From Dehalococcoidia bacterium UBA7891 (GTDB taxonomy: Bacteria > Chloroflexota > Dehalococcoidia > Lucifugimonadales > UBA826): 64,000 nucleotides of DNA. Shown here piece by piece: positions 10,495-60,225 of this stretch; the stretch's first letter is position 1, and each line of letters begins with the position of its first letter. Location: NCBI GenBank assembly GCA_002500485.1, contig DLRJ01000072.1, positions 982 through 64,981 of the forward strand. The letters are read 5' to 3'. The notes below the pieces were generated by a model, which worked only from the letters and a program-made list of their open reading frames with translations, had not been told where the DNA came from and did not search any database. Made by a program: the position numbers and the translations under genes.

Positions 10495-10522
10495 CCCTTT
10501 CATTCAACAAAGGTGGGTGGGA

Positions 10523-12622
10523 ATGCCCCCCCTACCCCACAGAAAAATAGCAGAACCCCACATGACAAACCGACTTTCCGAAGAATCGAGTCCTTATCTT
10601 TTGCAACATAAGGACAATCCTGTCAATTGGTTTGCCTGGGGCCTGGACGCCTTTGAAGAGGCTAAGGCTCGTGATGTTCCGGTCCTTTTAAGCGTCGGCT
10701 ACTCTTCCTGTCACTGGTGTCACGTTATGGAATACGAATCTTTTGAGAATGAAGAAATCGCAAAAGCTATGAATGATAATTTCGTAAGCGTGAAAGTGGA
10801 CCGTGAAGAAAGGCCCGACATAGACTCTATCTACATGTCGGCTGTTCAATCCATGACTGGCCAGGGCGGCTGGCCTTTGACGGTTTTCTTGACCTCTGAA
10901 GGGTTGCCGTTCTTTGGAGGTACATATTACCCCCCAGAACCCCGAGGAGGTATGCCTGGTTTCATTCAAATACTTTTGGCTATATCAGATGCATACAAAA
11001 ATAGGCGGCCGGAGATAGAGGAATCAGGCTCGTATCTCCTAGAGCATATAAGAGCTTCGATAACAGAGACTCCTGCCACCAATAATTTTGAACCTAGTTT
11101 ACTGGAACAGGCATACGAACAACTTCTTGCACAATGCGATTGGGAATGGGGTGGGTTCGGGAATTCGATAAAATTCCCTCAGTCCATGGCCTTAGAGTTC
11201 CTACTCAGATACCACTTAAACCACCCAGATTCTCGAGCCCTAGAAATGGTCGAAACAGCCCTTCAAAAAATGGCGTCTGGAGGTATGTACGACCATTTAG
11301 GGGGAGGGTTCCACAGATATTCGACTGACAAGAAATGGCTGGTGCCTCATTTCGAAAAAATGCTGTATGACAATGCCTTACTTTCGAGACTTTACATTCA
11401 CGCTTTCCAGGTTACAGGTAAAAATTTCTATCTTAGGGTTGCAAAAGACATATATGAATACATTGATAGGGACATGACCGATGAAAATGGTCTGTTTTAT
11501 TCCGCTGAAGATGCGGACAGTGAAGGCGAAGAAGGAACCTTTTACCTATGGGACCCTAATGAATTTAAGCGCCATTTAACCGATCTAGAGATGGCGTTAT
11601 TCAAATCAGCCTTTAGCCTAGGGGAAGAAGGTGACTTCGAAGGCAAAAATATTCTCCACTACAAACCAAAAGGAATGAATTTTGGATTTTTGGGAAGCGA
11701 GAACCCGGATTTACTTAATTTAAGAAAGAAATTGGTTGACATAAGGAATAGTCGGCCGAAGCCATTCAAAGACAATAAAAGCCTTCTATCTTGGAATGCT
11801 CTCATGTCACTCTCTTTCATAGAAGGATACCTTGTAAGCAAAGAGGAAAAGTTACTGGAAATAGCAAAACTAAACCTTAATTCATTATTAGATCTTATTG
11901 AATTTAATTCCGGGCTATTTCATTCATCCAAGGGGGGTCAAATAGGGAGTTATGGCTACCTCGAGGATTATTCATCCCTTATACTAGCCATGCTGGCTAT
12001 GCATGAAGCAACATTAGACCTGGAATGGCTGGCTAAAACGGAAAAAATAGCAGACACTTTAGTCTCCTTGTTCTGGAATAGTCATGAAACACGACTGTAC
12101 GACACTCCAGAAGACGGTGATGACCTCATTATTAGACCTAGTGAAAGTTACGATAACGCCACACCCTCAGGCTCATCCATGACTGCGGAGGCATTATTTA
12201 AATTATCTCTGATAACTAACAAATTAGAATATTTTAATATATTCATATCATTAATGAGCTCTACTGCCACCATCGCAAGTGAGCATCCAGTCTCTTTCGG
12301 TAATTGGCTATGTGTTTACGATTCTTATATTTATCCAACCATCGAAATAGCAATTATTTCAGATAATGCAAAACAAGCTTTGAAAATGCGTGATTGTTTG
12401 TACGAGTCCTATGTCCCTAATCATATTTTTTGTGGGAACGCCTATTTCAGCCACACAGAAAAAGCTAGGAACAAATGGGATACCTATCCCCTACTTAATG
12501 ACCGCGAACCGAAACAAGATATAGCAATGGCTTATTTATGCGAAAATTATGTTTGCGAACTTCCTGTCAGCTCAACAACAGAGCTATTGCGGTTAATACG
12601 ACAAAAGACGAAGGTGTCCTAA
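10523..12622 (+). CDS. thioredoxin-domain protein, DUF255/YyaL family (N-terminal Trx-like plus six-hairpin glycosidase-like domain)
   Basis: [31 protein letters not shown] is the DUF255 signature. Start ATG 10523 has AAGGTGG 6 nt upstream. ATG 10562 is an alternative that fits homologue N-termini. Confidence 0.8.
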
Positions 12623-16705: not shown

Positions 16706-18154
16706 TTAAGCTAGCTGGTATTCTCGGGTCGAGGCAATCATTCCAATCAACCGAGCAACCTGGGCCGATCCGTCTTCATCAGTTTTCCCGTTTTTCAGAT
16801 GTAGCTTGCCTTGGGATTCCGCAAATTCAATTAACCCTTCCCTTGTATCCGCTCCCACTTGTATGGGTCCCATAAAATCCAAACATGAATCTACTAAGTT
16901 TTCAGCATGGATCAAATCTATATACCCAGCAGTGACCCTCCTAATTATGTCTTGAACACCCTCTTTTGCTGGGTCGCTTAATTCCTTAGCTGCGAAATTG
17001 ATGCGCTCCACCAAGGAACCGCTATCTATCCACTCCACTCCTTCATGCCACCCTTCAACTGTCGGAGGTGCTAACAGCCCCTGTCCCATAAACATTGTTT
17101 GTGCCCATAGAGAATGCACGTCCAAAGTGGGTTCCTGATAGCTACCAGCTAATCTAGCTGTGCCTACAACAGATTCTACAGGGCCTTTCACTCTGGAATA
17201 TCGGCATTTTTCTGATTTGAAATAATCCGAGTTAAAAAGAGTCCTCAACACAGCTGAGACTTTAAATCCGGATTCGAAATAAGAATCCATCATTGCTTTT
17301 ATTACCTGCACTCCGTCATCATCTACTTCATCAGATGCGAAATATTGAAACAATCTTGTCGATAAAAACCTGGCAGTGGGTTTTTGGGTTACGATTATGT
17401 CAACAATGTCCTCACCGTTGAAATTCCCAACTTCACCTAAGAATTTTTTCTCACCACTATCATGATCGTCTGCCCGATATTCGTAATGCCAGGCTATTCT
17501 GCCGTATGGCCATATGGAATCCTTACTTGCCCTTACTGACATGTATTCAGCATTTTTTAAAGTCCAACCAGTAAAAGCTTTAGCACATTCTTTAATGTCG
17601 TCTTCTGAATAGTTACCAATACCCATGGAGAATAATTCGAGTAATTCCCTTCCATAATTCTCGTTGATGGCCTCTTTATGATTCTCATTATTGTCAAGCC
17701 ACAGAATCATTGCAGGATCCCGAGACAATTCAACTAATAAATCCCGGAAACTACCAAATCCATATTTCCGAAACATGTCAATTTGGTTGAGTAATGCCCG
17801 GGCTTGATTTAGTTTGGCGTAGCCTGTTGCAAACAATCCATGCCAAAATAAAGCTAATTTCTCTTCAAGAGGGTTACTTGTCGTCAGCATGCGGTAGAGC
17901 CAATAAGCACCCGCGCCATCCAACTGTCTCAATTCTGATTGGTCAACGTGATATCGTCGAATTAGATCATCTGGCATGTGGTCGGATTCGCCAGGGTCTA
18001 GTAGTTTATCCACCGTGGCCTCATAACCATCGCTCAGATACTCATCCAATTCATTACGAGTAGCACCGAACCCAGCCCGTCGCATAAGATGGGCCATCAA
18101 AGAAACGTCCTGACTCATATTTCTCACCTCTGAATAGTTATCTTTTAGTGCCAA
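16706..18154 (-). CDS. DUF1800 domain protein
   Basis: N-terminal HLMRRAGFGAT, followed by FWHGLFAT and WLDNNENHK as I recall for DUF1800. It is paired with a DUF1501 gene. Confidence 0.7.
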   Translation of the reverse strand: MALKDNYSEVRNMSQDVSLMAHLMRRAGFGATRNELDEYLSDGYEATVDKLLDPGESDHMPDDLIRRYHVDQSELRQLDGAGAYWLYRMLTTSNPLEEKLALFWHGLFATGYAKLNQARALLNQIDMFRKYGFGSFRDLLVELSRDPAMILWLDNNENHKEAINENYGRELLELFSMGIGNYSEDDIKECAKAFTGWTLKNAEYMSVRASKDSIWPYGRIAWHYEYRADDHDSGEKKFLGEVGNFNGEDIVDIIVTQKPTARFLSTRLFQYFASDEVDDDGVQVIKAMMDSYFESGFKVSAVLRTLFNSDYFKSEKCRYSRVKGPVESVVGTARLAGSYQEPTLDVHSLWAQTMFMGQGLLAPPTVEGWHEGVEWIDSGSLVERINFAAKELSDPAKEGVQDIIRRVTAGYIDLIHAENLVDSCLDFMGPIQVGADTREGLIEFAESQGKLHLKNGKTDEDGSAQVARLIGMIASTREYQLA

Positions 18155-18178
18155 ATCCGGTTTTATTAGTCTTACTAT

Positions 18179-19306
18179 TTAGGCATTGACGAAATCAAAC
18201 TGCTCAAAGTGACCATTTACTATCGGAACAGGGTCCAACCCAAACCATTTTTCAACAACGGTCGAATAAGTGGACCGGAAATCATTGTTGAAATGTAAAT
18301 CTCCTTCCAAGTGATCTGCCTCTTTTATAGACGGATACTGTCCATACATTCCACCTTTAATTTCACCCCCGATGATAAATGCAACACCGCCAGAACCATG
18401 ATCTGTGCCCGAGCCGTTGTCCTTGATACGCCTTCCAAATTCAGAGAATATCATCACTACGACTTCGTCCTCACGTCCATGTTCCTGCATATCATCGTAG
18501 AAATCTCCCACCGCACCAGACACTTCATCCCAAAGTTTTGCATGTGTAAGGATTTCCCCTGAATGAGTATCAAAACTACCATGTTGTGTATAAAAGACTC
18601 GGGTACCGAAATCAGCGAGCAAGACCTGAGCTATACTTTTCATCCCTTGAGCAATCGGGTTGGCAGCATATTCAATAGCCGAACTATATTTTTGAGGAGC
18701 GGTCCTGAGTATATCTGCACCTTTCAACGCATCCATACCTGTCTGGCCTAGAAAATTGAGGACTGGGTCTTTTCCCTGTACTCCGCCATACATGTGCGCA
18801 AATGCGTCAAGCGCAAGTTTTTTTGCCGACTCATCTTTTATATCTGGGAATAAGCCATATGTATCCAAATTACCGACTGACGCAACAGGGACTCCGCGAA
18901 CCCCTAAGGCTCTTGGTAACCCTCTACCGAAGTTCACACCAGTTAAGACATTTTCAGCAGTCGGATCAAGATCTCTAATAACTCTGCCAAGCCATCCTTC
19001 AGTGCCTATTTCATCAGGCTGAGCGGTATGCCAAATATCCATAGAACGAAAATGTGATCTATTCGGGTTGTCATAACCAATCCCATTAATGACAGCAACT
19101 TTTCCTTGATCATAAAGTCTTTTAATAGGTGCTAAATGGGGGCTGAAACCATAGACTTTATCGATGGGAAGAACCTTGTTTTGTTCAATATGGACAGTTT
19201 TCCTAAAGTCGTAATACTCGTCATCCCCATAGGGAACTACAGTATTTAAATAGTCGTTCCCACCTGAAAGCTGAACAACAACAAGTGATTTGTTTTTGTT
19301 TCCCAT
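18179..19306 (-). CDS. DUF1501 domain protein (sulfatase/alkaline-phosphatase-like fold)
   Basis: VVVQLSGGNDYLNTVVPYG, FSEFGRR and GTDHGSGG, as in DUF1501. The twin-arginine leader that is usual for this family is absent. Confidence 0.7.
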   Translation of the reverse strand: MGNKNKSLVVVQLSGGNDYLNTVVPYGDDEYYDFRKTVHIEQNKVLPIDKVYGFSPHLAPIKRLYDQGKVAVINGIGYDNPNRSHFRSMDIWHTAQPDEIGTEGWLGRVIRDLDPTAENVLTGVNFGRGLPRALGVRGVPVASVGNLDTYGLFPDIKDESAKKLALDAFAHMYGGVQGKDPVLNFLGQTGMDALKGADILRTAPQKYSSAIEYAANPIAQGMKSIAQVLLADFGTRVFYTQHGSFDTHSGEILTHAKLWDEVSGAVGDFYDDMQEHGREDEVVVMIFSEFGRRIKDNGSGTDHGSGGVAFIIGGEIKGGMYGQYPSIKEADHLEGDLHFNNDFRSTYSTVVEKWFGLDPVPIVNGHFEQFDFVNA

Positions 19307-19466: not shown

Positions 19467-20531
19467 GTGTTTTCTATTTACAAAATTTCACAAACATGGG
19501 GTGAAATCGTGTCCTCATCACCAATAGCAAAAACCTATTCCTTCAGTACATTGCAGCAAGCGAGTGAATACTTTCTTAAGCAGGGCTGGACCGATGGTCT
19601 TCCAATTAATTTACCCACAGAACAAGAAGTTTCCAAATTTATAGACCTTTCAGGTAAATCTTATAAAGACGTTGTAGGAGTTGAGCCTGTCAAAGGCAGG
19701 GAAATTACAATGGAGAAAGTCGCCATAAACTCAGTGATGGCTGGTTGCAAACCAGAATATTTTCCCATAGTGCTAACAGCTGTGGAGGCGCTGCTGGAAT
19801 CAAAATTTAATCTCCATGGGATTACCGCTAGTACTATGGGAGCAGGCATTTTGACGCTTGTGACTGGACCCATCGCGAAAGAAATAGGGTTAAATGGTGG
19901 AATAAGTCTCTTCGGCCCAGGGCATCAAGCAAACGCGACCATTGGCCGGGCGCTTCGATTAGTGGTAATTAATTGCACCGGATCCAGATCTGGAGAAATT
20001 GATAAAGCCACTCTGGGGCATGCTGGTAAATATACCTGGTGCATAACTGAAAATGAAGACTTTCGACCATGGCCCAACACAGCAGAAGACAGGGGTTTTT
20101 CGAAAGATGCCAACACCGTTTCAGTGTTCGCAGGCCTATCTCCGATCCAAGTAAGTAATCATTCGAGCCAAGATCCCGAAAATATACTTAGAAGTTTTAG
20201 AGATGCCCTTTTTGCTGCAGGCCCTAACCAAGGAGAGATAGTAATAATATTTTGTCCTGAACATATGCAATCTTTTAAAAAAGCTGGATGGACCAAGAAC
20301 CAGATTAGAGATTTTCTTTATGAGATGGCCGCAAGGACAAACGACGAGTGGGGATTCGGATCTATACCCCCTGGCCCCAGACCAACGGGCTCTGAGATAA
20401 CACCCTCTGCATTAACACCAGAGAGCTTCACATTACTAGTGGGAGGAGGTGCGGCAGGAGCGTTTTCATGCGTTATACCACTTTGGGCAGGCGGGGTAGG
20501 ATCCCAATCTGTCACAAAAGAATTAATTTAA
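19467..20531 (+). CDS. uncharacterised conserved-looking protein immediately upstream of the UGSC selenoprotein gene
   Basis: A 354-aa ORF with well-ordered segments (GWTDGLPINLPTEQEV, AINSVMAGCKPEYFPIV, GHQANATIGRALRLVVINCTG). The start is uncertain: GTG 19467 or GTG 19509. Confidence 0.6.
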   Translation: MFSIYKISQTWGEIVSSSPIAKTYSFSTLQQASEYFLKQGWTDGLPINLPTEQEVSKFIDLSGKSYKDVVGVEPVKGREITMEKVAINSVMAGCKPEYFPIVLTAVEALLESKFNLHGITASTMGAGILTLVTGPIAKEIGLNGGISLFGPGHQANATIGRALRLVVINCTGSRSGEIDKATLGHAGKYTWCITENEDFRPWPNTAEDRGFSKDANTVSVFAGLSPIQVSNHSSQDPENILRSFRDALFAAGPNQGEIVIIFCPEHMQSFKKAGWTKNQIRDFLYEMAARTNDEWGFGSIPPGPRPTGSEITPSALTPESFTLLVGGGAAGAFSCVIPLWAGGVGSQSVTKELI

Positions 20532-20595
20532 AGTCATATAGCCAAGTGTAAATCAGAAGATACTGTATGATGGGGAAAAGAAAAAGGGGGAACTT

Positions 20596-21129
20596 ATGGT
20601 TGAAGGAATTAGAGTTTTGGATCCAACAATAGATGCCAATTCACAGAATTCCCTACTGGCGATACGCCCTGAATCGCTCAATGGATTGACGGTAGGGCTG
20701 CTTGCCAACGGCAAAAAGAACTCTGTAGAAATACTCCGATACGTGTATGAGATTCTCAAAGATGATCATGGGCTAGGGGCTGTTATTGAAGATAACAAAG
20801 GTAACGCTTCAAGACCATGCCCTCCGAATTTGCTAGAAAAGCTAGCCAAACAATGTGATGTGATTATCACAGCCTCGGGTGATTGAGGGTCATGTTCTTC
20901 GTGCAGTGTGCACGACGGAATTCAATTTGAGAAAAAAGGAGTCCCTGCTGCAGTGATCTGCACGGAACCATTTGTGACTAGTGCCGTAGCTATGTCAAAA
21001 ATGGGAGGCATCCCAGAATTTCCTTTCGCTGTTGTACCTCATCCACTGGGTAGCTTAGACGAAACTTTGTTAAGAGAAAGGGCGCGAGAAGTAGCAAAGG
21101 ATATCGTAAAAATCCTCCTAGAAGGATAA
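20596..21129 (+). CDS. UGSC-motif selenoprotein (TGA at 20884-20886 read as selenocysteine; 177 aa)
   Basis: ORFs 20596..20886 and 20908..21129 are in one frame with no stop in between other than the TGA. The junction reads ITASGD-U-GSCSSCSVHDG. A SECIS-like hairpin follows the TGA. AAGGGGG lies 5 nt before ATG 20596, and the second ORF has no SD of its own. selC is nearby. Confidence 0.8.
20895..20920 (+). promoter_or_regulatory. candidate bacterial SECIS hairpin
   Basis: CGUGCA (20900-20905) pairs with UGCACG (20909-20914) around a GUG apical loop. The stem is extended by UUCUU/A(C)GGAA. The apical loop starts 20 nt after the UGA. Confidence 0.65.
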
Positions 21130-23346: not shown

Positions 23347-23444
23347 TGGCGGGAGCGCGAGGGAGTCGAACCCACCGCACCAATCGAAGGATTACTGCCA
23401 ACGGAGTTGAAGTCCGCAGAGACCACCAGGCCCCATCCGCTCCC
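23347..23444 (-). tRNA. selC: tRNA-Sec (anticodon UCA), CCA encoded
   Basis: 98 nt. The anticodon loop is CUUCAAC. The D-stem has 6 bp (GGGGCC/GGUCUC) with the 4-nt loop UGGU. There is a long variable arm (CAGUAAUC-CUUC-GAUUGGUG) and the T-loop UUCGACU. The acceptor is GGGAGCG/CGCUCCC. Confidence 0.85.
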
Positions 23445-23487
23445 AGATTAAGTTGTCCTCTATTACTGAATAGGTAATTTAATAAAA

Positions 23488-23817
23488 TTACCCCGAAAGG
23501 GCCTCATCAATCTTCTTTTGAATTATGGATTTCGGAACAGCGCCCACTATTTGGTCAACTGGCTTCCCGTCACTAAATATCAAAAGAGCTGGTATTCCTC
23601 TGATGTTGTAGTCCATAGAAGTTTGCCCATTACTATCAACGTCTAATTTGCCTACTTTGATTTTGCCTTCATACTCATCAGCGATCTGCTGAACTACAGG
23701 AGCTATCATCTTGCATGGCTGACACCAGTCAGCCCAAAAATCAATAAGCACAGGTATATCAGAGTTTAGTACTTCTTCTTGAAAATTACTGTCCGTTATT
23801 TCAACAGTGTTGGCCAT
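23488..23817 (-). CDS. trxA: thioredoxin
   Basis: 109 aa with VLIDFWADWCQPCKMIAP and IRGIPALLIF. The active site reads WCQPC rather than WCGPC. Confidence 0.9.
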   Translation of the reverse strand: MANTVEITDSNFQEEVLNSDIPVLIDFWADWCQPCKMIAPVVQQIADEYEGKIKVGKLDVDSNGQTSMDYNIRGIPALLIFSDGKPVDQIVGAVPKSIIQKKIDEALSG

Positions 23818-23885
23818 AACATATTCTCCTTGCTACCTAAAGTTGTTCTTTAATTTACTATATCTGGCTTGTCTGTAATTTGACA

Positions 23886-24446
23886 TTAATCGTTATCTTT
23901 CCAGTAGTCGATGAAATCTACAGGTATATATTCAACTTCATCCCAAAATATTGTACCTAAAAGCAGTCCTTTTGGCACATCAAAAACCAAACTACCAGAT
24001 ACCTGAAAGCCTCTTGCTAGCTCTATTTCCCCCCACAAAACCGGTGTTATTTCTAAAACATCAGGATCTAGGCTCAAGGTCCCTGAAATCTCCTTGGAAC
24101 GTGTAAAAGGATCTATTGCATTAGATTTCTTTCCTCTCCGGTCACCGAGTGTCGCAGCATCTGGGTCTACAGATATCGGTATAACCGTACTACTTCTATT
24201 GACTATAGTCGTGTTGACAACGGCCAATTTCCTATTCGATGCACTAGGTGTGATAATCCTTGTGATTCCATCTTCGGTATAAAACGCCTTGGAAACAACT
24301 TGAGGTCGTGAGGCGTGTACTTCCAAGTTCCTACCAGTTGCTCCCAAATCTAATTTCTCCGAGTTACAAGAGACAAAAAAAGTAATTGAAATTAAACAGG
24401 CCGATAAAACAGCTAAAATCGATCGAAAATTAGTAAAAATAATCAT
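23886..24446 (-). CDS. secreted lipoprotein, DUF4352-like Ig-fold
   Basis: Signal peptide ending in lipobox FVSC. The beta-rich body ends in SGSLVFDVPKG. Confidence 0.45.
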   Translation of the reverse strand: MIIFTNFRSILAVLSACLISITFFVSCNSEKLDLGATGRNLEVHASRPQVVSKAFYTEDGITRIITPSASNRKLAVVNTTIVNRSSTVIPISVDPDAATLGDRRGKKSNAIDPFTRSKEISGTLSLDPDVLEITPVLWGEIELARGFQVSGSLVFDVPKGLLLGTIFWDEVEYIPVDFIDYWKDND

Positions 24447-24505
24447 GGTTTCTCTAAATGTTTTAATTCTTAAAATACAGGCTCAACAATCTATCACATC
24501 GTAAA

Positions 24506-25702
24506 TCAAGGATGGGCAGTTAAGGAAGGCAAATCACGTAGCCTTTTTATGAGATTCGGAAGCACCTCCATGAGATAATCTACATCTCCGTCAGAGTTAT
24601 CCCGACCCAAAGTTATTCTAAGGGTACCCTGAGCTAACTCCGCAGAATGACCTATCGCTAGCAAAACATGCGATGGCTCCAATGAAGCTGATGAGCATGC
24701 ACTTCCACTAGAAGCACAAATTCCGGCAAAATCTAAACCTAGAAGAATAGGCTCTCCCTCGACTCCGCGGAAAGATACACTAACATTATTCGGAAGCCGG
24801 TCTGTTAAATGGCCGTTTATAGTCATTCCTTCTATTTCATCTCTTAGTCCTCTGATTATCCTGTCACGCTTGGCAGATAAGCTGACCTGTAGTTCTTCCC
24901 TATCCTTTACAGCTAGCTCTAAAGCCTTTGCTAACCCCACTATTCCGGGAACGTTCTCAGTGCCAGATCGGTTTTGGCGTTCCTGACCACCTCCCATTAT
25001 CAAAGGTTCAAATGGGGTACCTCTCCTCAAATAAAGAAGCCCTACCCCTCGTGGGCCATGAAATTTATGGGCAGAAATACTTAGCATATCTACCCCTAAA
25101 TCTTTTACATTTATCTCGAGTGAACCAGCCGCCTGCACTGCATCACTGTGAACCAATATAGTTTTTCCTTTTTCCTGGCCTAATAATTTGACAGCTTCTG
25201 CAATCTTTTTTATAGGCTGAATAGTCCCGATTTCATTGTTTGCCATCATCACACTGACAAGAATAGTGTCCTCTCTTATAGAGCCTAAAACCTCATCTAC
25301 AGAAACCCTCCCATAGGAATCAACAGGCAAATAAGTCACATCAAACCCAAACTGTTCCATCTGTTGACAAGTATGCAAAACAGCATGATGCTCAATTTCC
25401 GTCGTTATAATATGGGTTCCCAAATTACGCATTGCCGAGGCAGCGCCCTTAATTGCAGCATTATCAGACTCGGTCCCTCCACTAGTAAATACTATTTCAC
25501 TAATCCTAGCGCCAAGTATCCGTGCCACTGATTCTCGAGATTCATCAACCGCTTTCCTCGCTTCCTGAGCTAGGGTATATATGCTGGAAGGGTTCCCATA
25601 GCTGAATTGCAAATATGGCAACATCGTCTCCAACACCTCGGGCCTCATGCGCGTAGTCGCGGCGTGATCAAAATAGATGATTCCGTTTTCTGACTGTGGC
25701 AT
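24506..25702 (-). CDS. cysteine desulfurase (NifS/IscS class V aminotransferase)
   Basis: [21 protein letters not shown] (PLP lysine) and SSGSACSS (active-site Cys loop). ATG 25702 has GGGAGGA upstream. The longer 25951 start has no homology support. Confidence 0.88.
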
Positions 25703-25931
25703 GACGATCAATCCTCCCTCGCAATCACAACCAAATGTCCCTCTATAGATCTTAGCATGTCCATTTGTTACAGATAGGTCTGATAGAAAGGTGAAAATAT
25801 CATTGTAATTGTGAAGGAGTTTAAAATATGCTTGTACACTGGAACCGGTTAGATTAACATTCCTCAGTTCTCTTTTTACCGTCGACCAATACCGGATAAA
25901 ATGTGAAACGCAGGAATTAAGGATTACATAA

Positions 25932-26900
25932 TTGATCGATGCGATAGACATAACTAAATATTACGGTGACTTCCCTGCTGTAACAGGTTTGAATTTTTCA
26001 GTTGAACAGGGAGAGATCCTTGGTTTTCTTGGACCTAACGGGGCCGGTAAATCAACAACAATGAAAATATTAACCGGATTTATCCCTCCTTCTTCCGGTA
26101 CTGCCAAAATTGCCGGATATGACATTGTTGAACAATCCCTACTTGCTAGAAGACACATCGGATATTTACCAGAGACAGTGCCACTATACGAGGACATGGA
26201 GATCAGTGATTACCTGTCCTTCATGGGTCAAATCAGGGGAATGTCTTCCTCTCAATTAAAAAAACGGATAGATGAGGTGGTCGAACTGTGCCGGCTTGAA
26301 GAGTACAGAAATACTATTATTGGCAAACTCTCTAAAGGATATAGACAAAGAGTCGGAATATCACAAGCAATACTGCATGAACCTGACGTTTTAGTATTGG
26401 ACGAACCTACTATAGGAATTGATCCCATCCAAGTAGTAGAGACTAGGCAATTAATAAAAAACCTAGGCGAAGAACATACCTTGATATTAAGTTCGCACAT
26501 TCTTCCGGAAGTGAGCATGATCTGTGACAGGGTCATCATCATTCATGAAGGGCAGATCGTGGCTGTTGACGATCCTAGCAACTTAGGTACTAATTTATCA
26601 GGAATAGAACGGGTAGAAATTGAGGTAAAAGGGCCTAATAGGGAAATAGTTCCTGTGCTCGAAGAGATAGACGGAGTCCAATCAATAGAAAGAATCCCAG
26701 TAACAGGTGGCGCCTACCACAGATATCATATTACGGTAGATATAGGACGAGATCTTAGACACGACTTAGCCAAAATGGTTGTAGCTAGTGGTTGGGAACT
26801 TTTGAAATTACAGTCACTTGGTATGTCTTTAGAAGAAATATTCCTGAGACTTACAATAGAGGAAGAGGAATTACCGAGTCCTCCAGGGGAAGCTTCTTGA
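25932..26900 (+). CDS. ABC transporter ATP-binding protein (ABC-2/GldA-like)
   Basis: Walker [10 protein letters not shown], signature LSKGYRQR and Walker B VLVLDEPT. Confidence 0.88.
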
Positions 26901-36832: not shown

Positions 36833-38428
36833 ATGTCTGATTACACAGCCGATCTCATAATCATTAACGCAAACATACATACTGTAAATAGTAAGGTTCC
36901 ACATGCGCAGAGTTTTGCCGTAAAGAACGGTAGATTTGTATCAGTTGGTACAAATTCAGATACTCAAATGCTAAGCGGTCCAAATACTGAAATATTGGAT
37001 TTGACAGGGTATACAGTTGTACCTGGTTTCATTGATGCTCATATACATGTCCTCAGTAGCGGTTCTCGCCACATCATGGCAGCAGATTGCGATCTACGTA
37101 GCATCTCAGACGTTCAGGACGCTCTAAAAAGACGGTCAGAAAAAACTGAGTCTGGTAACTGGGTACAGGGGTTCAAATATGACGATACTAAGACTGAAGA
37201 AAATAGATTTTTAACAACTTCAGACTTAGACAAAGTCAGCACGGAATTACCTATATTTGTGTCTCACAGAGCGGGCCATGTTTACTACGCCAACAGTAAA
37301 GCTCTATCTCTTGCAGGATATACCGATGATTCGGACGATCCTCATGGGGGGAGATTGGGAAGAGACCCAAATACTGGAAAACTAAATGGAGTGATTTATG
37401 AAAGGGCGGTGGAGGCATTCAGAGAATTACTACCTACTGTAGACGCTGAAGACCGACGCAGGGGACTCAAATTAATAAATGGAATGCTCAGCGAAGTAGG
37501 ATTAACTAGCGTTCATGATGCAAGCGTATCCAACGATGAATTCGTAACCTACCAGGAAGGTCTAGAAAATGGAGACTTGGATCTCAGGGTTTACATGCTT
37601 ATGGCCAAAGCCCACTTCCCTGCCCTCAGGGATGCTGGAATACGAACAGGGTTCGGAAACGATCGCTTAAAAGTTGGTGGCATCAAAATGGTTTCTGATG
37701 GGGCGATAGCAGCGAGGACCGCCTACCTGTCTCAACCATACATAGGTTCCGACTATGATGATTGTGGCATACAAGCAATGAGTCGGGAAGAGATAAGTGA
37801 ATCTGTTAAAGAAATGCATTCGGAAGGCTTTCAGGTGTGCATACATGCTAATGGAGACCTTGCAATATCTATGGTATTAGACGCGTATGAGGAAGCATTG
37901 AAGAAGTTTCCAAGAGCTAACCCAAGGCACCGAATAGAGCACTGTACCCTTGTTAATCCAGAAATTTTAACGCGAATGAACAAAACGGGAACCATAGCCA
38001 CCCCTTTCTGCACTTACGTTTATTATCATGGAGAAAAAATGCAGTTTTACGGTGATGAAAGGTTAGAGTGGATGTTCGCACAAAAATCTTTCATGGAATA
38101 TGGCGTTACGTCCACCGGTGCTACTGATTACCCTCCAGGACCGTATGAGCCGTTATTAGGTATTCAAAGTTGTGTTACTAGAACCGACATAAATGGAACT
38201 CTGTGGGGGCCAAGCCAAAAGATATCTGCCAAGGATGCCTTGCGCATTTACACATTAAACGGGGCATATGCTTCATTTGAAGAATCTCATAAAGGTTCGA
38301 TTGAACCGGGTAAATTAGCCGATTTTGTGGTACTTGAAGAAGACATATTGGATGTGGACCCTTTCTCGATCAAAGATATCAAGGTTATAAAGACTGTGGT
38401 AGGAGGCAAACCTACTTACGAAATTTAG
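36833..38428 (+). CDS. amidohydrolase-3 family metal-dependent hydrolase (YtcJ-like)
   Basis: VPGFIDAHIHV, HANGD and HRIEHCTL, the metal ligands of the TIM-barrel amidohydrolase family. ATG 36833 follows the lysS stop. Confidence 0.8.
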   Translation: MSDYTADLIIINANIHTVNSKVPHAQSFAVKNGRFVSVGTNSDTQMLSGPNTEILDLTGYTVVPGFIDAHIHVLSSGSRHIMAADCDLRSISDVQDALKRRSEKTESGNWVQGFKYDDTKTEENRFLTTSDLDKVSTELPIFVSHRAGHVYYANSKALSLAGYTDDSDDPHGGRLGRDPNTGKLNGVIYERAVEAFRELLPTVDAEDRRRGLKLINGMLSEVGLTSVHDASVSNDEFVTYQEGLENGDLDLRVYMLMAKAHFPALRDAGIRTGFGNDRLKVGGIKMVSDGAIAARTAYLSQPYIGSDYDDCGIQAMSREEISESVKEMHSEGFQVCIHANGDLAISMVLDAYEEALKKFPRANPRHRIEHCTLVNPEILTRMNKTGTIATPFCTYVYYHGEKMQFYGDERLEWMFAQKSFMEYGVTSTGATDYPPGPYEPLLGIQSCVTRTDINGTLWGPSQKISAKDALRIYTLNGAYASFEESHKGSIEPGKLADFVVLEEDILDVDPFSIKDIKVIKTVVGGKPTYEI

Positions 38429-41400
38429 TCCGACTTCCGGACTGATATCGTGACTTGTTCTCCTTCCAATTCATAACTCTCTGAATAGCTATCATTCAAG
38501 CCTTCTCCGAATATGACTTCAGAAGCTAAAGTTTCTTGAAGTACATAGTCACTAAATTTACCCACTACCCTCGAAATTTCAGCGGACCCATTTACGAACA
38601 ATTCGATACGATCAGATATTTCTAACCCTGCAGCTCTTCTAACATTCTGGATACTGTGAACTAGTTCTCGGGCAAGCCCTTCATCTTTCAGTGAATCGGA
38701 TATTTCTGTAGATATACCTACCGCATAACCTCGATCGGTAGAGGTAGAATAACCCTCCAATTCATCGGCATTTACCAAGATATCTTCTGGGCCTAATTCA
38801 AATCCGGCAATATTTACTGCATTGCCTGCCTCAATATCAGTCCTTATGCTATCAACATCAGCCTGTTCCAACGCTTCTCTGATCGCAGCAACACTCTTAC
38901 CATATTTCGGTCCCAGAACAGGTAAGTTTGGCTGTAGCCTAAAACTAACTATTTCTGAAGCATCATCAACTGGTTTTATCTCTTTAATATTGAGCTCATC
39001 TAATATCTGATCCTCTATAAGCCCCAACATCTCTAGCTCAGTGGAATTTCTAGTTTTAACAAACAAGTCCTGCAAAGGTTGTCTTACCTTTATACCTGCT
39101 TTACTTCGAGCTGACCTACCCATACTTGATAGCTGCATGGCCAGCCTAACTCTCTCTGTCAAACCTTGATCAATCAAACTTTCATCACTAACTGGATAGT
39201 CTTCCAAATGAACACTTTCCCTACCGAAGGAGAAATGGGAAGCCAAATTCTGGTACATTTTTTCAGTAATGAAAGGTATGACAGGTGCCATTAATTTTAT
39301 TAAAGTCATCAGAACTTCATGCAATGTGGTATATGCAGAAAGTTTGTCAATATCTGGATCCTCAGCTGCTCCGGTAAGTAATCCTGATTTCCAAAACCTT
39401 CTTCGGCTTCTCCTCACATACCAGTTGGAGAGATATTCGATAAACTCTTCAACTTCTCTAGTAACCCTCTCTGGCTGAAAGTTTTCAAGGTTGTCAGTTA
39501 CTGTTTGAACTAAAATATTTAATTCACTGAGAATCCATCTATCTAATTCGGCTCGATCTGACACGTTGGGTGATTGCGCCTCAGGATCAAATTTATCAAT
39601 ATTGGCGTATGTAACGAAAAACGAATATACATTCCATAAAGGAATTAAAAATTGCCTACGTACCTCATCAGCACTACCAAACCCAAAATTCAGATTTGAA
39701 GCAGGATTTTGACCGGCGAATTGCCAACGCATCGCATCAACCCCCATTTTTTCAGCGGCATCCTCAAACCAGATAGCATTGCCCTTACTTTTATGCATTT
39801 CTTCGCCATTTGCGTCCCGCATTAACGCATAGCTAAAAATATTCTTGCAAGGTTCAGAATCGGCTAGAACTGTACTCATCGTAAGTAGGGAATAGAACCA
39901 GTTTCTGTATTGCCCAGGAAAACTCTCAGAAATCCAATCAGCTGGAAACCAATCTTTCCAATAATTTCTGTCGTGTCGGTAATTTAAAGTCGAGAAAGAA
40001 ACAATACCGGCGTCAAGCCATGGATTTCCTACGTCTGAAACACGAGACAATTTCTCCCCACAAGAAGAGCAATTAATCTTCACCGAATCTATCCAAGGTT
40101 TATGAGGTGAATTACCTTCAAATTCATCCCAGCCCTCGACAGCCCTCTCTTCCAATTCTTTCTCACTTCCAATTACGTCGAAATTACCGCATGAACATTT
40201 ATAAATTGGAAGGGCTAAACCATAGTATCTTTTCTTAGAAATCATCCAATCGTCCATATTTCTAAGCCAGTCCAATTCACGTTTCATCCCGAATTCGGGA
40301 ACCCACCGAATATTTTGAGTAACTCGAGATAGGGGCCCTCTTAGTGGGTCCATTTTTATGAACCATTCATCCACCAATCTAAAAACCAACTCTGAACCAC
40401 ATCTCCAGCAATGAGGATATCTGTGCTTGTACCGTTCTAGGCGATAAAACTTACCTTTGCTCTTTAAACTCTCATATATTTTGTCATTGACTTCATATAC
40501 ATTTAAACCGGTGAGCCAATCGAACCCTTCCACAAAATCTCCTAGATCATCCAGCGGTGCTATGGTTGGTATACCTTCCCTTTTACCCAATGCAAAGTCC
40601 TCTTTACCAGCACCCGGAGCAATATGAACAATTCCAGTACCTTCTGTTTCGGAAACTTCATCCCATGCTACAACTCTGTGTTTCACTCCTTCCTGAGCAG
40701 GCAATTCATCAAATGGACCCTCATAATTCAGTCCTACTAATTCAGAACCTTTGAGTTCAGAGACCACTTCATATTCTCCTGCCACTGAGGATATTCGAGA
40801 TTTAGCCAAATACAAATAGCCATGATCTTGCTTAACTTTCACATAATCGATGTCTTTATTTACAGCGGCAGCACAATTTGAAGATAAGGTCCAAGGAGTC
40901 GTGGTCCATATAAGGAGAGACTCCTCTGTAGTTTCCGAGTCTGAATCAAGTATCGGAAATTTAACAAACAAGCCGGGGTGTTCTATTTCTACATACCCCT
41001 CTGTAACAATTTCGTGTTCGGACAACCCTGTGCTGCATCGAGGGCACCATGGCATTACATCAGTGCCTTCATACAATAAACCTTTCTCATGACAAGTTTT
41101 CAAGAAGTGCCAAATTGTGTAATTGTTCTCATCCGACATAGTGTGATAGGAATTATCCCAGTGCATCCAATAGGCCAGTTGCTTTGATTGCTCTGATATA
41201 ACATCTGCAAATCGCTGAACCCTCTCCTTACACAACGTCACAAATTTATCTATTCCGTATCCTTCTATATCAGTTTTGGAGGTAAAACCTAATTCCTTCT
41301 CCACTTCCACTTCTATCCACAACCCTTGCCCATCAAACCCGTTTTGGTACCTTTGCCTATATCCTTGCATAGTCCTAAATCTGCTAAAAAGATCCTTGTA

Positions 41401-41592
41401 ACTCCTACCCCAAGCATGATGCACTCCCATAGGATTGTTAGCAGTTATCGGCCCATCTATGAAGGAATATCGTTTATCTGAATCTTCATTTTTTGCCATG
41501 TATTTGTCTGGTATTTGATTTTCGTTCCACCACTTCAAAATACCGGTCTCCATCTCAGGAAAATTCATTTTCGAATCTACTGCTTCAAACAT
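38425..41592 (-). CDS. ileS: isoleucine--tRNA ligase
   Basis: PITANNPMGVHHAWG (HIGH-type) and KMHKSKGN (KMSKS). The Zn-knuckle cysteines and the length of about 1055 aa fit. ATG 41592 has GGGAG 5 nt upstream and lies directly after the T-box terminator. Confidence 0.92.
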   Translation of the reverse strand: MFEAVDSKMNFPEMETGILKWWNENQIPDKYMAKNEDSDKRYSFIDGPITANNPMGVHHAWGRSYKDLFSRFRTMQGYRQRYQNGFDGQGLWIEVEVEKELGFTSKTDIEGYGIDKFVTLCKERVQRFADVISEQSKQLAYWMHWDNSYHTMSDENNYTIWHFLKTCHEKGLLYEGTDVMPWCPRCSTGLSEHEIVTEGYVEIEHPGLFVKFPILDSDSETTEESLLIWTTTPWTLSSNCAAAVNKDIDYVKVKQDHGYLYLAKSRISSVAGEYEVVSELKGSELVGLNYEGPFDELPAQEGVKHRVVAWDEVSETEGTGIVHIAPGAGKEDFALGKREGIPTIAPLDDLGDFVEGFDWLTGLNVYEVNDKIYESLKSKGKFYRLERYKHRYPHCWRCGSELVFRLVDEWFIKMDPLRGPLSRVTQNIRWVPEFGMKRELDWLRNMDDWMISKKRYYGLALPIYKCSCGNFDVIGSEKELEERAVEGWDEFEGNSPHKPWIDSVKINCSSCGEKLSRVSDVGNPWLDAGIVSFSTLNYRHDRNYWKDWFPADWISESFPGQYRNWFYSLLTMSTVLADSEPCKNIFSYALMRDANGEEMHKSKGNAIWFEDAAEKMGVDAMRWQFAGQNPASNLNFGFGSADEVRRQFLIPLWNVYSFFVTYANIDKFDPEAQSPNVSDRAELDRWILSELNILVQTVTDNLENFQPERVTREVEEFIEYLSNWYVRRSRRRFWKSGLLTGAAEDPDIDKLSAYTTLHEVLMTLIKLMAPVIPFITEKMYQNLASHFSFGRESVHLEDYPVSDESLIDQGLTERVRLAMQLSSMGRSARSKAGIKVRQPLQDLFVKTRNSTELEMLGLIEDQILDELNIKEIKPVDDASEIVSFRLQPNLPVLGPKYGKSVAAIREALEQADVDSIRTDIEAGNAVNIAGFELGPEDILVNADELEGYSTSTDRGYAVGISTEISDSLKDEGLARELVHSIQNVRRAAGLEISDRIELFVNGSAEISRVVGKFSDYVLQETLASEVIFGEGLNDSYSESYELEGEQVTISVRKSD

Positions 41593-41602
41593 ATTTACTC
41601 CC

Positions 41603-41850
41603 AAAATATAAGGCCCGCCCCAATCAAGGGACGGGCCTTAAAATAGTCCGCGGTACCACCCTAATTCCCCGTATCAGACGAGGCTCTTAGTTAAAAAGCA
41701 CCGATAACGTAGTGCAGATCCGTCATTTCCTAATCACTTATAAGTTTTCAGAATGAAACTCCGGAGTGATCTTCAAGCTAGCCGCAAGTACCCTCTCTCA
41801 GCAACCAAGGGCTCTCTGAACCGCAATCTAGTCTCTACTCGTCTCCATCA
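41603..41850 (-). promoter_or_regulatory. T-box riboswitch leader, Ile specifier (AUC), with intrinsic terminator
   Basis: Read on the minus strand. Stem I has the AGUA...GAA S-turn and an AGAGAG box. The specifier AUC-A is at 41768-41770. The T-box is AATTAGGGTGGTACCGCGG (41648-41666). The terminator AAGGCCCGTCCC-TTGATT-GGGGCGGGCCTT plus a U-tract is at 41603-41639. Confidence 0.85.
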
Positions 41851-41907
41851 AAGTTATTTATTTAGCTGCAACAAGAGTAGAAAAGAGCGTGCCTTGTGTC
41901 AAGATTT

Positions 41908-59280: not shown

Positions 59281-60225
59281 ATGCTGATACACCGATTGAC
59301 CAAAATGGGTTTTGGAATGCTAGTAGGAGCGCTAATTTTAGGCGTCCTAAGTGCCTGCTCAAGCACTTCCGGTGTGTCTGAAGACACATCATTGGATAGT
59401 AGAGGTTACTCATCCACAGAGCGACTGGTGTCAACAAAATGGGTCGCAGATAATCTCGACAACAAAAATGTAAAGGTTATTGATATCAGAAAAGCTGAAG
59501 ACTATGACGCTGGACACATTCCTGGTGCCTTAAACTACTCTTCCAAAGAACTCCAGGTTGAATCTGGAGGGGTGAAAGGTTTAATCCCACCATCAACAGA
59601 TATTTCGAATAAACTTAGTTCTTTAGGTATAAAAAGTGACGACACCATAATCATCTATGACGGCATAAAAAATCTCTGGTCAACAAGGTTTTTGTGGACA
59701 CTGGATGTATACGGTCATGATGACGCAAGGATGATGGACGGTTCCTTTGGTTTGTGGGAAAAAGAAAACAGGAAAATTACCGCCGATGCTACTCCAGCAA
59801 AGACCTCTACCTATAAATTCACAGGTACGGCCAATAGTGAACTGGTCACAAGTATAGAGACAGTACTGGGTTCCTTAGATGATTCCTCCTCGGTAGTCCT
59901 AGACACCAGAGGGGCAGAGGAATTTGCAGGACGTGATGTAAGGGCCAGTAGAGGGGGCCATATTCCAGGTTCCATACATGTTGAATGGGTGAACAACGTT
60001 GATGAAGATGGTAGATTTCTACCTGCCTCAGATTTAAAAGAATTGTATGCATCTGCGTACATAACGGACGAGTTAGGCGATATTTATACCTTATGCCAAA
60101 CGGCAGTCAGGGCAACCCACAGCTGGTATGTACTGGCTGATCTACTTGGCTTTGATAATGTATCCGTCTATGATGGGTCTTGGACTGAATGGGGTAACAG
60201 AGAAGATACACCTATCGACTCCTAG
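59281..60225 (+). CDS. tandem-rhodanese sulfurtransferase, predicted lipoprotein
   Basis: The signal peptide has lipobox LSAC. There are two rhodanese domains. The C-terminal one carries the active-site loop CQTAVRAT, followed by YDGSWTEW. Confidence 0.8.
   Translation: MLIHRLTKMGFGMLVGALILGVLSACSSTSGVSEDTSLDSRGYSSTERLVSTKWVADNLDNKNVKVIDIRKAEDYDAGHIPGALNYSSKELQVESGGVKGLIPPSTDISNKLSSLGIKSDDTIIIYDGIKNLWSTRFLWTLDVYGHDDARMMDGSFGLWEKENRKITADATPAKTSTYKFTGTANSELVTSIETVLGSLDDSSSVVLDTRGAEEFAGRDVRASRGGHIPGSIHVEWVNNVDEDGRFLPASDLKELYASAYITDELGDIYTLCQTAVRATHSWYVLADLLGFDNVSVYDGSWTEWGNREDTPIDS

What the first reader, a model, noticed from the sequence alone, without database searches (positions are those of the whole stretch)
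20596..21129. Selenoprotein hidden as two ORFs: in-frame TGA inside a U-G-S-C-S-S-C redox motif
The 96-aa and 73-aa ORFs share one frame and are separated only by TGA 20884-20886 plus seven sense codons. The second ORF has no ribosome-binding site, and its only start candidate (GTG 20908) sits in the loop of the hairpin. Read through, the junction is ITASGD-U-GSCSSCSVHDGIQFEKKG. That is a UxxC overlapping a CxxC, the classic context for selenocysteine in redox proteins. It matches the UGSC motif after which an uncharacterised (seleno)protein family is named. The family's function is unknown. A SECIS-like hairpin and a tRNA-Sec gene in the same window support Sec decoding.
Basis: partly seen in the sequence, partly recalled or inferred. 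Interest (0 to 1): 0.85.

Follow-up and report, generated by a model that had tools for sequence, protein, structure and literature searches.

The report
UGSC selenoprotein gene split by TGA

Summary
Window 20596-21129 (+) is one gene. Read through TGA 20884-20886, the 177-aa product matches Pfam PF24696 (UGSC) end to end and passes the NCBIfam equivalog cut-off for NF041046, "UGSC family (seleno)protein". All 90 related Sec-type loci whose sequence reaches the column have TGA there (65 distinct sequences), followed by a conserved ~80-aa in-frame tail. All 78 Cys-type homologues (mostly Actinomycetota) have TGC or TGT. A 7-bp hairpin 12 nt after the UGA is fully paired in 53 of 53 distinct Sec-type sequences, with compensatory changes, and in 0 of 76 Cys-type genes. 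Synonymous variation collapses exactly over it. A tRNA-Sec lies 2.2 kb away. The family has been known since about 2007 and its function is unknown, so novelty is low. New here: the fold is flavodoxin/Rossmann-like, not thioredoxin-like. The U-GS-C-SS-C motif is the UxxCxxC motif of GrdB, with weak but repeated HMM similarity to GrdB/PrdB. The upstream 354-aa gene (no Pfam or NCBIfam family) is adjacent to UGSC in almost every locus and fused to it in 30 of 150 representative clusters. It is otherwise fused to Prx-, Trx- or NifU-like redox domains. I infer a two-part, thioredoxin-fed selenol/thiol reductase.

The parts
20596..21129 (+). UGSC-family selenoprotein gene, 177 codons plus a TAA stop. 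Sec is codon 97 and the redox motif is U97-G-S-C100-S-S-C103.
   Evidence: Translation. PF24696 193.2 bits, protein residues 6-175 on profile 1-171/172. NF041046 143.3 bits against a cut-off of 125. Cys/Sec-aligned homologues.
20884..20886 (+). In-frame TGA decoded as selenocysteine.
   Evidence: TGA in all 65 distinct Sec-type sequences. TGC or TGT in all Cys-type loci. TGA is otherwise an ordinary stop, ending 8 of 33 family-supported genes in the window.
20899..20915 (+). SECIS core hairpin: 7-bp stem UCGUGCA/UGCACGA with a GUG loop, starting 12 nt after the UGA. In this sequence it can extend to 20894-20921.
   Evidence: Core stem 100% paired in 53 distinct sequences, with GC to AU in 4, CG to UA in 1 and GC to GU in 3. 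RNAalifold predicts the same helix. Synonymous-codon entropy is 0.00-0.69 bits at codons +5 to +11, against about 0.7-2.5 elsewhere. All 7 pairs are present in 0 of 76 Cys-type genes, including L172 and L173, which encode the same SCSV peptide.
20581..20591 (+). Shine-Dalgarno-like purine run (AAAAAGGGGGA) ahead of ATG 20596. There is no equivalent before GTG 20908.
   Evidence: Read directly from the sequence.
19467..20531 (+). Partner gene: 354-aa protein with no Pfam or NCBIfam family, 64 nt upstream on the same strand. Residues conserved across the family: WxDGLP (41-46), R78, N88, AGC94xP, S122-T123, G150xG152...N156...R161, C192xxE195, E265-H266.
   Evidence: No family hit. Adjacent to UGSC in 77 of 80 Cys-type loci and in every Sec-type locus with enough flank. 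Reciprocal test 3 of 3. Fused to UGSC in 30 of 150 representative clusters. Conservation analysis.
23347..23444 (-). tRNA-Sec (anticodon TCA), 2.2 kb downstream of the selenoprotein gene.
   Evidence: ARAGORN. Rfam RF01852, 62.5 bits. A tRNA-Sec lies 0.1-4 kb downstream of UGSC in 21 of 35 related loci.
23488..23817 (-). Thioredoxin (109 aa, WCQPC motif) next to the tRNA-Sec. A candidate reductant for the UGSC protein; the link is inferred.
   Evidence: ORF listing. 76% identical to the Pfam-annotated thioredoxin of L007. A thioredoxin lies within the flank in 31 of 92 Sec-type loci. In L172 and L173, thioredoxin (with thioredoxin reductase in L172) is in the same operon as partner and UGSC.

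Best explanation
Window 20596-21129 is a single gene for a 177-residue selenoprotein of the UGSC family.

Shown by comparative evidence: UGA 20884-20886 is a selenocysteine codon. It is marked by a SECIS hairpin (20899-20915) that starts 12 nt downstream, inside the coding sequence. By established knowledge of bacterial Sec insertion, SelB carrying Sec-tRNA(Sec) binds such a hairpin and delivers Sec at the UGA. A tRNA-Sec gene lies 2.2 kb away.

Shown by prediction: the protein has a flavodoxin/Rossmann-like alpha/beta fold. Sec97 sits in the loop between strand 3 and the N-terminus of helix 3, with Cys100 and Cys103 on the first turns of that helix. The motif is UxxCxxC.

Inferred: the protein does not work alone. 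It is the selenol/thiol redox module of a two-part enzyme whose core is the 354-aa protein encoded just upstream (19467-20531). That protein keeps two universally conserved cysteines (C94, C192) and a Glu-His pair. Sec97 attacks either a substrate adduct or an oxidised cysteine on the partner. Cys100 (and Cys103) then resolves the intermediate into a selenenylsulfide, which thioredoxin reduces again. This parallels the way the selenoprotein subunits GrdB and PrdB work with their partner subunits GrdE and PrdA. The substrate is unknown.
For: Identity and recoding:
- Family models are passed above their cut-offs.
- The Sec column is Cys in full-length homologues and is the exact truncation point of the 97-99-aa fragments.
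- TGA plus a conserved in-frame tail in every Sec-type locus; TGC/TGT in every Cys-type locus.
- Hairpin fully paired in 53 of 53 sequences with compensatory changes, a synonymous-site freeze over exactly that stretch, and absence from Cys-type genes that encode the same peptide.
- tRNA-Sec present; TGA is otherwise a stop.

Fold: AlphaFold2 pLDDT 92.1, five beta-alpha units. Foldseek returns only flavodoxin-like folds, TM 0.57 or lower.

GrdB/PrdB link:
- The window protein hits GrdB TIGR01917 at E = 2.4e-5 over residues 81-154, matching model positions 331-398.
- 5 of 31 other members hit PrdB TIGR04483, best E = 4.9e-5.
- GrdB's defining motif is UxxCxxC (PMC6778437, PMC13188914).

Partner:
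- Adjacent in 77 of 80 Cys-type loci and in every Sec-type locus with enough flanking sequence, although the gene order is reversed between the two groups.
- 3 of 3 in the reciprocal test, with otherwise different neighbours.
- 30 of 150 representative partner clusters are UGSC fusions in both orders. The five other N-terminal extensions examined are AhpC-TSA/Redoxin, Trx-like CPTC or NifU-like CxxC domains in the same position.
- Operons run TrxR-Trx-partner-UGSC in Arthrobacter and Trx-partner-UGSC in Nonomuraea.
- A thioredoxin lies next to the tRNA-Sec in the window.
Against: - No experiment exists for any member of either family. The literature lists the function as unknown (PMC13188914).
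- The GrdB/PrdB similarity is weak, far below those families' cut-offs. Its register relative to their Sec is fixed only to within about 3 residues.
- The partner shows no detectable similarity to GrdE or PrdA, or to any Pfam or NCBIfam model. It has no convincing structural neighbour; the best is class-I fumarate hydratase at TM about 0.25.
- Thioredoxin is in the same operon in only a few actinobacterial loci. In the marine loci it is on the opposite strand, so that linkage could be lineage synteny.
- selA, selB and selD were not seen in the window.
- NifU fusions, a NifS-like neighbour and the nearby tRNA-Sec also fit a sulfur, selenium or Fe-S trafficking role.
Confidence: 0.6

Rival explanations
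1. The UGSC protein is a self-sufficient thiol/selenol oxidoreductase with a thioredoxin-like role in general redox defence, as the literature has assumed. The neighbouring gene is incidental.
For: A UxxC motif at a helix N-terminus is the classic geometry of redox-active CxxC proteins. The GOS paper and later reviews group UGSC with proteins "likely" to have a Trx-like fold (PMC2398784, PMC13188914).
Against: The predicted fold is flavodoxin/Rossmann-like, not thioredoxin-like. The partner is adjacent in nearly all loci across phyla even though gene order is reversed. It is physically fused to UGSC in 30 of 150 clusters.
Confidence: 0.12
2. The cassette handles sulfur, selenium or Fe-S clusters rather than reducing a metabolite. 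UGSC would carry a persulfide, a perselenide or a cluster, and pass it to or from the partner.
For: NifU-like C-terminal domains are fused to UGSC in 7 of 31 full-length homologues, and a NifU-like domain is fused to the partner in P0254. A NifS/IscS-like cysteine desulfurase (24506-25951, 521 bits to TIGR03402) lies in a conserved block with tRNA-Sec and thioredoxin next to the cassette. The best, though weak, structural hits for the partner are Fe-S fumarate hydratases.
Against: Only two partner cysteines are universal; C263 is replaced by G, S or T in most actinobacterial members, so a family-wide 3-Cys cluster site is unlikely. The NifS block is on the opposite strand and was seen only in the marine lineage. 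Interchange with peroxiredoxin-like and Trx-like domains points to electron or disulfide relay.
Confidence: 0.2
3. TGA 20884 is a genuine stop. The locus is two small genes or a decayed pseudogene.
For: Gene callers split it this way in the public collections: 97-99-aa and 74-aa products.
Against: The ~80 codons downstream are conserved in frame in every Sec-type locus. The second ORF has no ribosome-binding site, and its first start codon lies inside the hairpin. One protein-family profile spans both parts, and Cys occupies the column in other lineages. The TGA itself is invariant in 65 distinct sequences that share only 50-99% protein identity.
Confidence: 0.02
4. TGA is read as Trp or Gly because the genetic code is reassigned across the genome.
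For: One database entry (P0001) shows W at the column.
Against: TGA ends 8 of 33 family-supported genes in this window. A tRNA-Sec is present. Homologues have Cys, not Trp or Gly, at the column.
Confidence: 0.01

Closest known systems
UGSC family (seleno)protein (NCBIfam NF041046, Pfam PF24696; the "UGSC-containing protein" of Zhang and Gladyshev)
   Same: Full-length match above both curated cut-offs. Same U/C-G-S-C motif at the same column. The same split between Sec forms and Cys forms. Marine metagenomic distribution.
   Different: Nothing that defines the family differs. This copy belongs to the UxxCxxC (U-GS-C-SS-C) subgroup, which has an extra conserved Cys75 in a GNASRPCP motif that the actinobacterial Cys forms lack.
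GrdB/GrdF/GrdH and PrdB, the substrate-specific selenoprotein subunits of glycine, sarcosine, betaine and D-proline reductases
   Same: A UxxCxxC motif after the Sec. Weak but repeated HMM similarity across the Sec region. Each works with a second subunit encoded next door. Thioredoxin and thioredoxin reductase genes sit in the same operon in some members, as I recall for grd operons.
   Different: Scores are far below the family cut-offs (19-23 bits against 65-602). The protein is much shorter than GrdB (177 aa against about 430). The partner is not detectably related to the pyruvoyl proproteins GrdE or PrdA. No grdA, grdC, grdD or prdC genes are nearby. The hosts appear to be SAR202-like Chloroflexota and Actinomycetota rather than the amino-acid-fermenting clostridia in which Grd and Prd have been characterised.
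Bacterial SECIS elements (E. coli fdhF type; the bSECISearch consensus)
   Same: A hairpin inside the coding sequence beginning 12 nt after the UGA. The apical loop is 19 nt from the UGA and contains G-U. It is present only in the UGA-bearing genes.
   Different: A very small GUG or GUA triloop on a 7-10-bp stem. No Rfam SECIS model matches. SelB binding is untested.
Thioredoxin-fold UxxC/CxxU selenoproteins (SelW-like, Prx-like, Trx-like)
   Same: The redox motif sits at the N-terminus of a helix following a beta-strand. Sec/Cys interchange occurs across lineages.
   Different: The predicted topology is a five-unit parallel beta-alpha sandwich (flavodoxin/Rossmann-like), not the thioredoxin fold.

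Membership tests
UGSC family (seleno)protein (NF041046 / PF24696) | Whole-protein score above the curated cut-off of the family models | tested here: met
   NF041046 143.3 bits against a cut-off of 125; PF24696 193.2 bits against 25, covering profile positions 1-171 of 172.
UGSC family (seleno)protein (NF041046 / PF24696) | U/C-G-S-C motif with Sec or Cys at the family's conserved column | tested here: met
   GD-U-GSCS aligns with the invariant GD-C-GSCS of full-length homologues.
UGSC family (seleno)protein (NF041046 / PF24696) | For Sec forms: in-frame UGA with a downstream SECIS, in a Sec-decoding organism | tested here: met
   Hairpin with covariation and a synonymous-site freeze, absent from Cys forms. 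tRNA-Sec in the window. selA, selB and selD not seen in the window.
Bacterial SECIS element | Stem-loop shortly downstream of the UGA (about 11 nt to the stem; apical loop 16-37 nt from the UGA) with G/U in the apical loop. This consensus is recalled from Zhang and Gladyshev 2005. | tested here: met
   The stem starts 12 nt after the UGA. The loop (GUG or GUA) starts 19 nt after it.
Bacterial SECIS element | Binding by SelB and UGA read-through that depends on the SECIS | not testable with these tools
   Needs a binding or reporter assay.
GrdB/PrdB selenoprotein B family (TIGR01917, TIGR01918, TIGR04483) | Score above the family cut-off | tested here: not met
   23.4 bits against 602.2 (TIGR01917). 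19.4 against 65.45 (TIGR01918). The PrdB matches whose bit scores were listed reach about 14 bits against 300; the best PrdB match in the family has E = 4.9e-5.
GrdB/PrdB selenoprotein B family (TIGR01917, TIGR01918, TIGR04483) | UxxCxxC motif following the Sec (PMC6778437) | tested here: met
   U97-G-S-C100-S-S-C103, conserved in all Sec-type homologues.
GrdB/PrdB selenoprotein B family (TIGR01917, TIGR01918, TIGR04483) | Partner subunit is a pyruvoyl proprotein (GrdE/PrdA), with grdA/C/D or prdC genes nearby | tested here: not met
   The partner hits no Pfam or NCBIfam model. No such genes were seen among the window ORFs scanned or in the annotated related loci.
Thioredoxin-fold redox proteins | Thioredoxin fold with the CxxC/UxxC motif at the N-terminus of helix 1 | tested here: not met
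   The AlphaFold2 model (pLDDT 92) has five beta-alpha units. All Foldseek matches are flavodoxin-like or Rossmann-like. No thioredoxin-family Pfam hit.

The most novel reading that the evidence does not exclude
UGSC and the unannotated ~345-aa partner together form a widespread enzyme that has not been characterised. The partner family has 4,541 clusters at 50% identity. I suspect, but could not confirm, that it is the "Unknown_1" domain of the 2008 GOS paper. On this reading the enzyme is a two-part, often fused, Sec- or Cys-dependent reductase. Its redox subunit shares ancestry with the GrdB/PrdB selenoprotein subunits of Stickland reductases, and it operates in SAR202-like marine Chloroflexota and in Actinomycetota on an unknown substrate.
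Probability: 0.3. Interest if true: 0.65.

Novelty: already known. Interest (0 to 1): 0.33.

Why it matters
As a selenoprotein call it is routine. It shows that standard gene callers still split this gene: the public collections hold many 97-99-aa and 74-aa fragments, and one entry with a mistranslated Trp.

The wider value is that UGSC is among the most abundant predicted selenoprotein families in the ocean and still has no known function. Four observations turn that into a testable problem:
- the near-obligate pairing or fusion with one uncharacterised protein family
- the interchange of UGSC with Prx-, Trx- and NifU-like domains
- the GrdB-type UxxCxxC motif
- thioredoxin and thioredoxin reductase in the same operon in culturable actinobacteria

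These suggest co-expressing the pair, or using the Cys-type operon of a culturable Arthrobacter or Nonomuraea, and then looking for the substrate.

Tried and rejected
- **Single-sequence folding.** The 68-nt stretch after the TGA gives z = -0.29, which is uninformative. I used comparative analysis instead.
- **PDB sequence searches.** The UGSC protein and its family profile find nothing real.
- **Foldseek, UGSC model.** Only generic flavodoxin-like matches.
- **Foldseek, partner model.** No convincing match.
- **Three-Cys [4Fe-4S] site in the partner.** Prompted by the weak fumarate-hydratase hits. Dropped because C263 is not conserved in the actinobacterial members.
- **Pfam and NCBIfam scans of the partner.** Three distant homologues were included (Pfam only). 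Nothing found.
- **Genome-collection scan.** The tool chose the pattern GDCGSCS, so it returned only Cys forms. Sec forms came from a metagenome scan built on the N-terminal fragments.
- **All-against-all ORF clustering of flanks.** Meant to find a third conserved gene. It collapsed into one giant cluster because of spurious ORFs in the high-GC loci, so I used pre-called genes instead. ComA and Peptidase_S15 neighbours recur in only 2-3 loci.
- **P0024.** Not on record for a context look-up.
- **Rfam.** No SECIS family hit, even at E up to 10.
- **GOS Figure S1.** Held only as an image, so I could not confirm that "Unknown_1" is this partner.
- **selA, selB, selD.** Not found in the 51 window ORFs scanned.
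- **Other selenoprotein genes in the window.** The scan found none that were credible.
- **Structure prediction.** I used the 65%-identical P0001, which has W at the Sec column, as the first row instead.

Full report
**1. The observation**

ORF 20596-20886 (ATG start, 96 aa) ends in TGA at 20884-20886. ORF 20908-21129 (GTG start, 73 aa) is in the same frame, seven sense codons further on. A Shine-Dalgarno-like purine run precedes the ATG, and nothing similar precedes the GTG. The junction reads ITASGD-U-GSCSSCSVHDG. A 7-bp hairpin (UCGUGCA-GUG-UGCACGA, 20899-20915) starts 12 nt after the TGA. The GTG straddles the loop and the 3' arm rather than lying entirely in the loop.

A tRNA-Sec at 23347-23444 (-) is called by both ARAGORN and Rfam. 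In-frame TGAs between ORFs are common by chance, with 53 in this window, and the single-sequence fold is not significant (z = -0.29). The case therefore rests on homology and comparison.

**2. Identity**

With Cys in place of U, the joined 177-aa protein matches Pfam PF24696 (UGSC) over profile positions 1-171 of 172 at 193.2 bits (cut-off 25). It also matches the NCBIfam equivalog NF041046, "UGSC family (seleno)protein", at 143.3 bits (cut-off 125).

A search of 5.8 billion proteins returns two kinds of relatives. Full-length proteins have Cys at the TGA column (GD-C-GSCS). Many 97-99-aa proteins end exactly at ...SGD. One entry (P0001, 65% identical) has W at that column, which looks like a TGA translated as Trp.

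I fetched 171 related loci. All 90 Sec-type loci whose sequence reaches the column have TGA, followed by a conserved in-frame tail of about 80 aa (GSCSSCSVHDG...). All 78 Cys-type loci with a detectable match, almost all Actinomycetota, have TGC or TGT. TGA ends 8 of 33 family-supported genes in the window, so the code is standard and the recoding is site-specific.

**3. The SECIS element**

- In 53 distinct sequences the 7-bp core stem is paired in every case.
- All eight variant sequences keep pairing: GC to AU in four, CG to UA in one, GC to GU in three.
- RNAalifold predicts the same helix independently.
- Per-codon analysis of 65 distinct genes shows synonymous-codon entropy of 0.33, 0.11, 0.00, 0.12, 0.35, 0.39 and 0.69 bits at codons +5 to +11. 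Elsewhere it is about 0.7-2.5 bits, close to the maximum for most codons. That is selection on the RNA overlaid on the coding sequence.
- None of 76 distinct Cys-type genes has all seven pairs. L172 and L173 encode the same S-C-S-V peptide with Cys and keep only four and three pairs. The hairpin therefore goes with the UGA, not with the peptide.
- No Rfam SECIS model matches. In my understanding those models are clade-specific, so this was expected.

selA, selB and selD were not found among the 51 of the window's 65 ORFs of 120 aa or more that I scanned. This says nothing about the rest of the genome.

**4. What is already known**

UGSC-containing protein has been a recognised, computationally predicted selenoprotein family since at least 2007 (PMC1976440). 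It was among the most abundant families in the GOS selenoproteome, with 255 Sec forms and 21 Cys forms. It was described there as likely to have a Trx-like fold and as occurring in a "UGSC/Unknown_1" fusion (PMC2398784). The 2022 and 2026 reviews still list its function as unknown (PMC9312934, PMC13188914). The finding is therefore a correct call on a known family, not a discovery.

**5. The fold and the GrdB/PrdB similarity**

It has mean pLDDT 92.1. It shows five beta-alpha units: strands 33-37, 64-67, 89-93, 118-123 and 145-147, alternating with helices. The Sec lies in the loop between strand 3 and helix 99-113. Foldseek against the PDB gives only flavodoxin, WrbA, RpiB and PurE-like matches at TM 0.57 or lower. 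The fold is flavodoxin/Rossmann-like, not thioredoxin-like.

The window protein also hits GrdB (TIGR01917, E = 2.4e-5, residues 81-154 on model positions 331-398) and related models. Five of 31 other family members hit PrdB (TIGR04483, best E = 4.9e-5). Coordinates place the Sec/Cys column within about three positions of the Sec of PrdB, which is U151 in *C. difficile* (PMC11229817), and of GrdB. The Sec-type motif U-GS-C-SS-C has the form UxxCxxC, the motif that defines GrdB/F/H (PMC6778437, PMC13188914). The scores are far below family cut-offs, so this is a remote relationship and not membership.

**6. The partner**

The gene 64 nt upstream (19467-20531, 354 aa) has no Pfam or NCBIfam match. 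Its homologues occur as follows:

- **Sec-type loci:** directly upstream on the same strand wherever enough flank exists. The exception is one lineage (L001-L006), where the gene is 2.6 kb away on the opposite strand.
- **Cys-type loci:** 77 of 80, always on the same strand. It is usually immediately downstream, so the gene order is reversed.
- **Reciprocal test:** three partner homologues picked from long contigs each have a split UGSC gene directly downstream, while the other neighbours differ.

An exhaustive search finds 4,541 partner clusters at E of 0.001 or lower. The top 150 break down as follows:

| Architecture | Count |
|---|---|
| Stand-alone | 97 |
| Full UGSC domain fused N-terminally | 9 |
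| Start with only the post-Sec part of a UGSC domain | 17 |
| End with only the pre-Sec part (HMM 3-94) | 4 |
| Other N-terminal extension | 17 |
| Tandem duplications | 6 |

The 17 and 4 partial forms are the patterns expected of Sec-type fusions cut at the TGA. I examined five of the 17 other extensions: four are AhpC-TSA/Redoxin or Trx-like domains with a CPTC motif, and one is a NifU-like CxxC domain.

In Arthrobacter the operon runs thioredoxin reductase, thioredoxin, partner, UGSC-NifU. In Nonomuraea it runs thioredoxin, partner, UGSC.

The partner keeps two universal cysteines (C94 in AGCxP, and C192) plus WxDGLP, R78, N88, ST, GxGxxAN..R and E265-H266. Its model (pLDDT 83.7) has no convincing PDB neighbour.

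**7. Mechanism**

Shown: the recoding signals and the identity of the protein.

Inferred: UGSC is the selenol/thiol redox module of a two-part enzyme whose core is the partner. Sec97 attacks a substrate adduct or an oxidised cysteine on the partner. Cys100 or Cys103 resolves the intermediate to a selenenylsulfide, and thioredoxin reduces it again. This is how GrdB and PrdB are thought to act with GrdE and PrdA (PMC11229817, PMC13188914).

The main rival is a role in sulfur, selenium or Fe-S trafficking. It is suggested by the NifU fusions and by a conserved block next to the cassette containing tRNA-Sec, thioredoxin, an unknown gene and a NifS-like gene. Readings in which the TGA is a real stop, or the code is reassigned, are effectively excluded.

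**8. Verdict**

Novelty is low, because the family is catalogued and this copy passes its equivalog model. The modest added interest comes from the UGSC-partner cassette and fusions, the corrected fold and the GrdB-type motif. Together these give a concrete, testable route to the function of an abundant ocean selenoprotein family.

Noticed in passing
window 23347-25951 (-); also L007, L092-L097, L111, L114, L121, L124, L130, L163, L168, L176: A conserved block on the opposite strand downstream of the UGSC gene: tRNA-Sec, thioredoxin (23488-23817), an unannotated 186-aa protein with a lipoprotein-like N-terminus (23886-24446), and a NifS/IscS-like cysteine desulfurase (24506-25951). A tRNA-Sec lies 0.1-4 kb downstream of UGSC in 21 of 35 related loci, including loci where UGSC is only 53-65% identical. 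Intervening genes (EVE, MDMPI-like, transglutaminase-like) come and go.
   Followed up: partly
P0285, P0297, P0269, P0343, P0272, P0254, P0242, P0253 (partner-family representatives): The partner domain also occurs fused to peroxiredoxin-like AhpC-TSA/Redoxin domains or Trx-like domains with a CPTC motif, and to a NifU-like CADC domain. It also occurs as tandem duplications of about 710 aa. Several of the Prx/Trx fusions have a short PGCG[SA]K-like motif in the linker.
   Followed up: partly
window 20596-20883 and alignment A4: Sec-type UGSC proteins carry an extra invariant cysteine (C75, in the motif KGNASRPCP) and C87 (CDV). Actinobacterial Cys-type proteins lack C75. The Cys-type proteins split into a CGSCSA(A/S/T) subgroup with the partner downstream and a CGSCSSC subgroup, often NifU-fused, with the partner upstream as in the Sec forms.
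   Followed up: partly
P0001 and the 97-99-aa / 74-aa database entries: Public protein collections hold this gene family mostly as split fragments. At least one entry has Trp at the Sec column, apparently from a gene caller using a code that reads TGA as Trp.
   Followed up: yes
window 41624-41860 (-): A T-box leader (Rfam RF00230, 121 bits) lies upstream of the 1059-aa ORF 38425-41604 (-), presumably an aminoacyl-tRNA synthetase. Names attached to partner homologues (Chloroflexi, SAR202 cluster, Dehalococcoidia) suggest the window comes from a marine SAR202-like Chloroflexota genome.
   Followed up: no
window 57342-58586 (-) and 59281-60225 (+): A YedE/FdhT-like putative selenium/sulfur transporter (198 bits, below the cut-off of 350) and a rhodanese-type sulfurtransferase (3-mercaptopyruvate sulfurtransferase-like, with a weak hit to the selenite-reduction protein ExtH) lie near each other. 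They may be relevant to selenium or sulfur handling.
   Followed up: no
window 16706-19306 (-): A DUF1800/DUF1501 gene pair lies immediately upstream of the partner gene on the opposite strand. It recurs in 18-25 of the closely related marine loci but not in other lineages.
   Followed up: no
window 10517-12622 (+): A 701-aa ORF whose only family signal is a faint match (E = 8e-6, 24 bits) to the rhodanese/DsbD-fusion selenoprotein TsoB. It remains uncharacterised.
   Followed up: no
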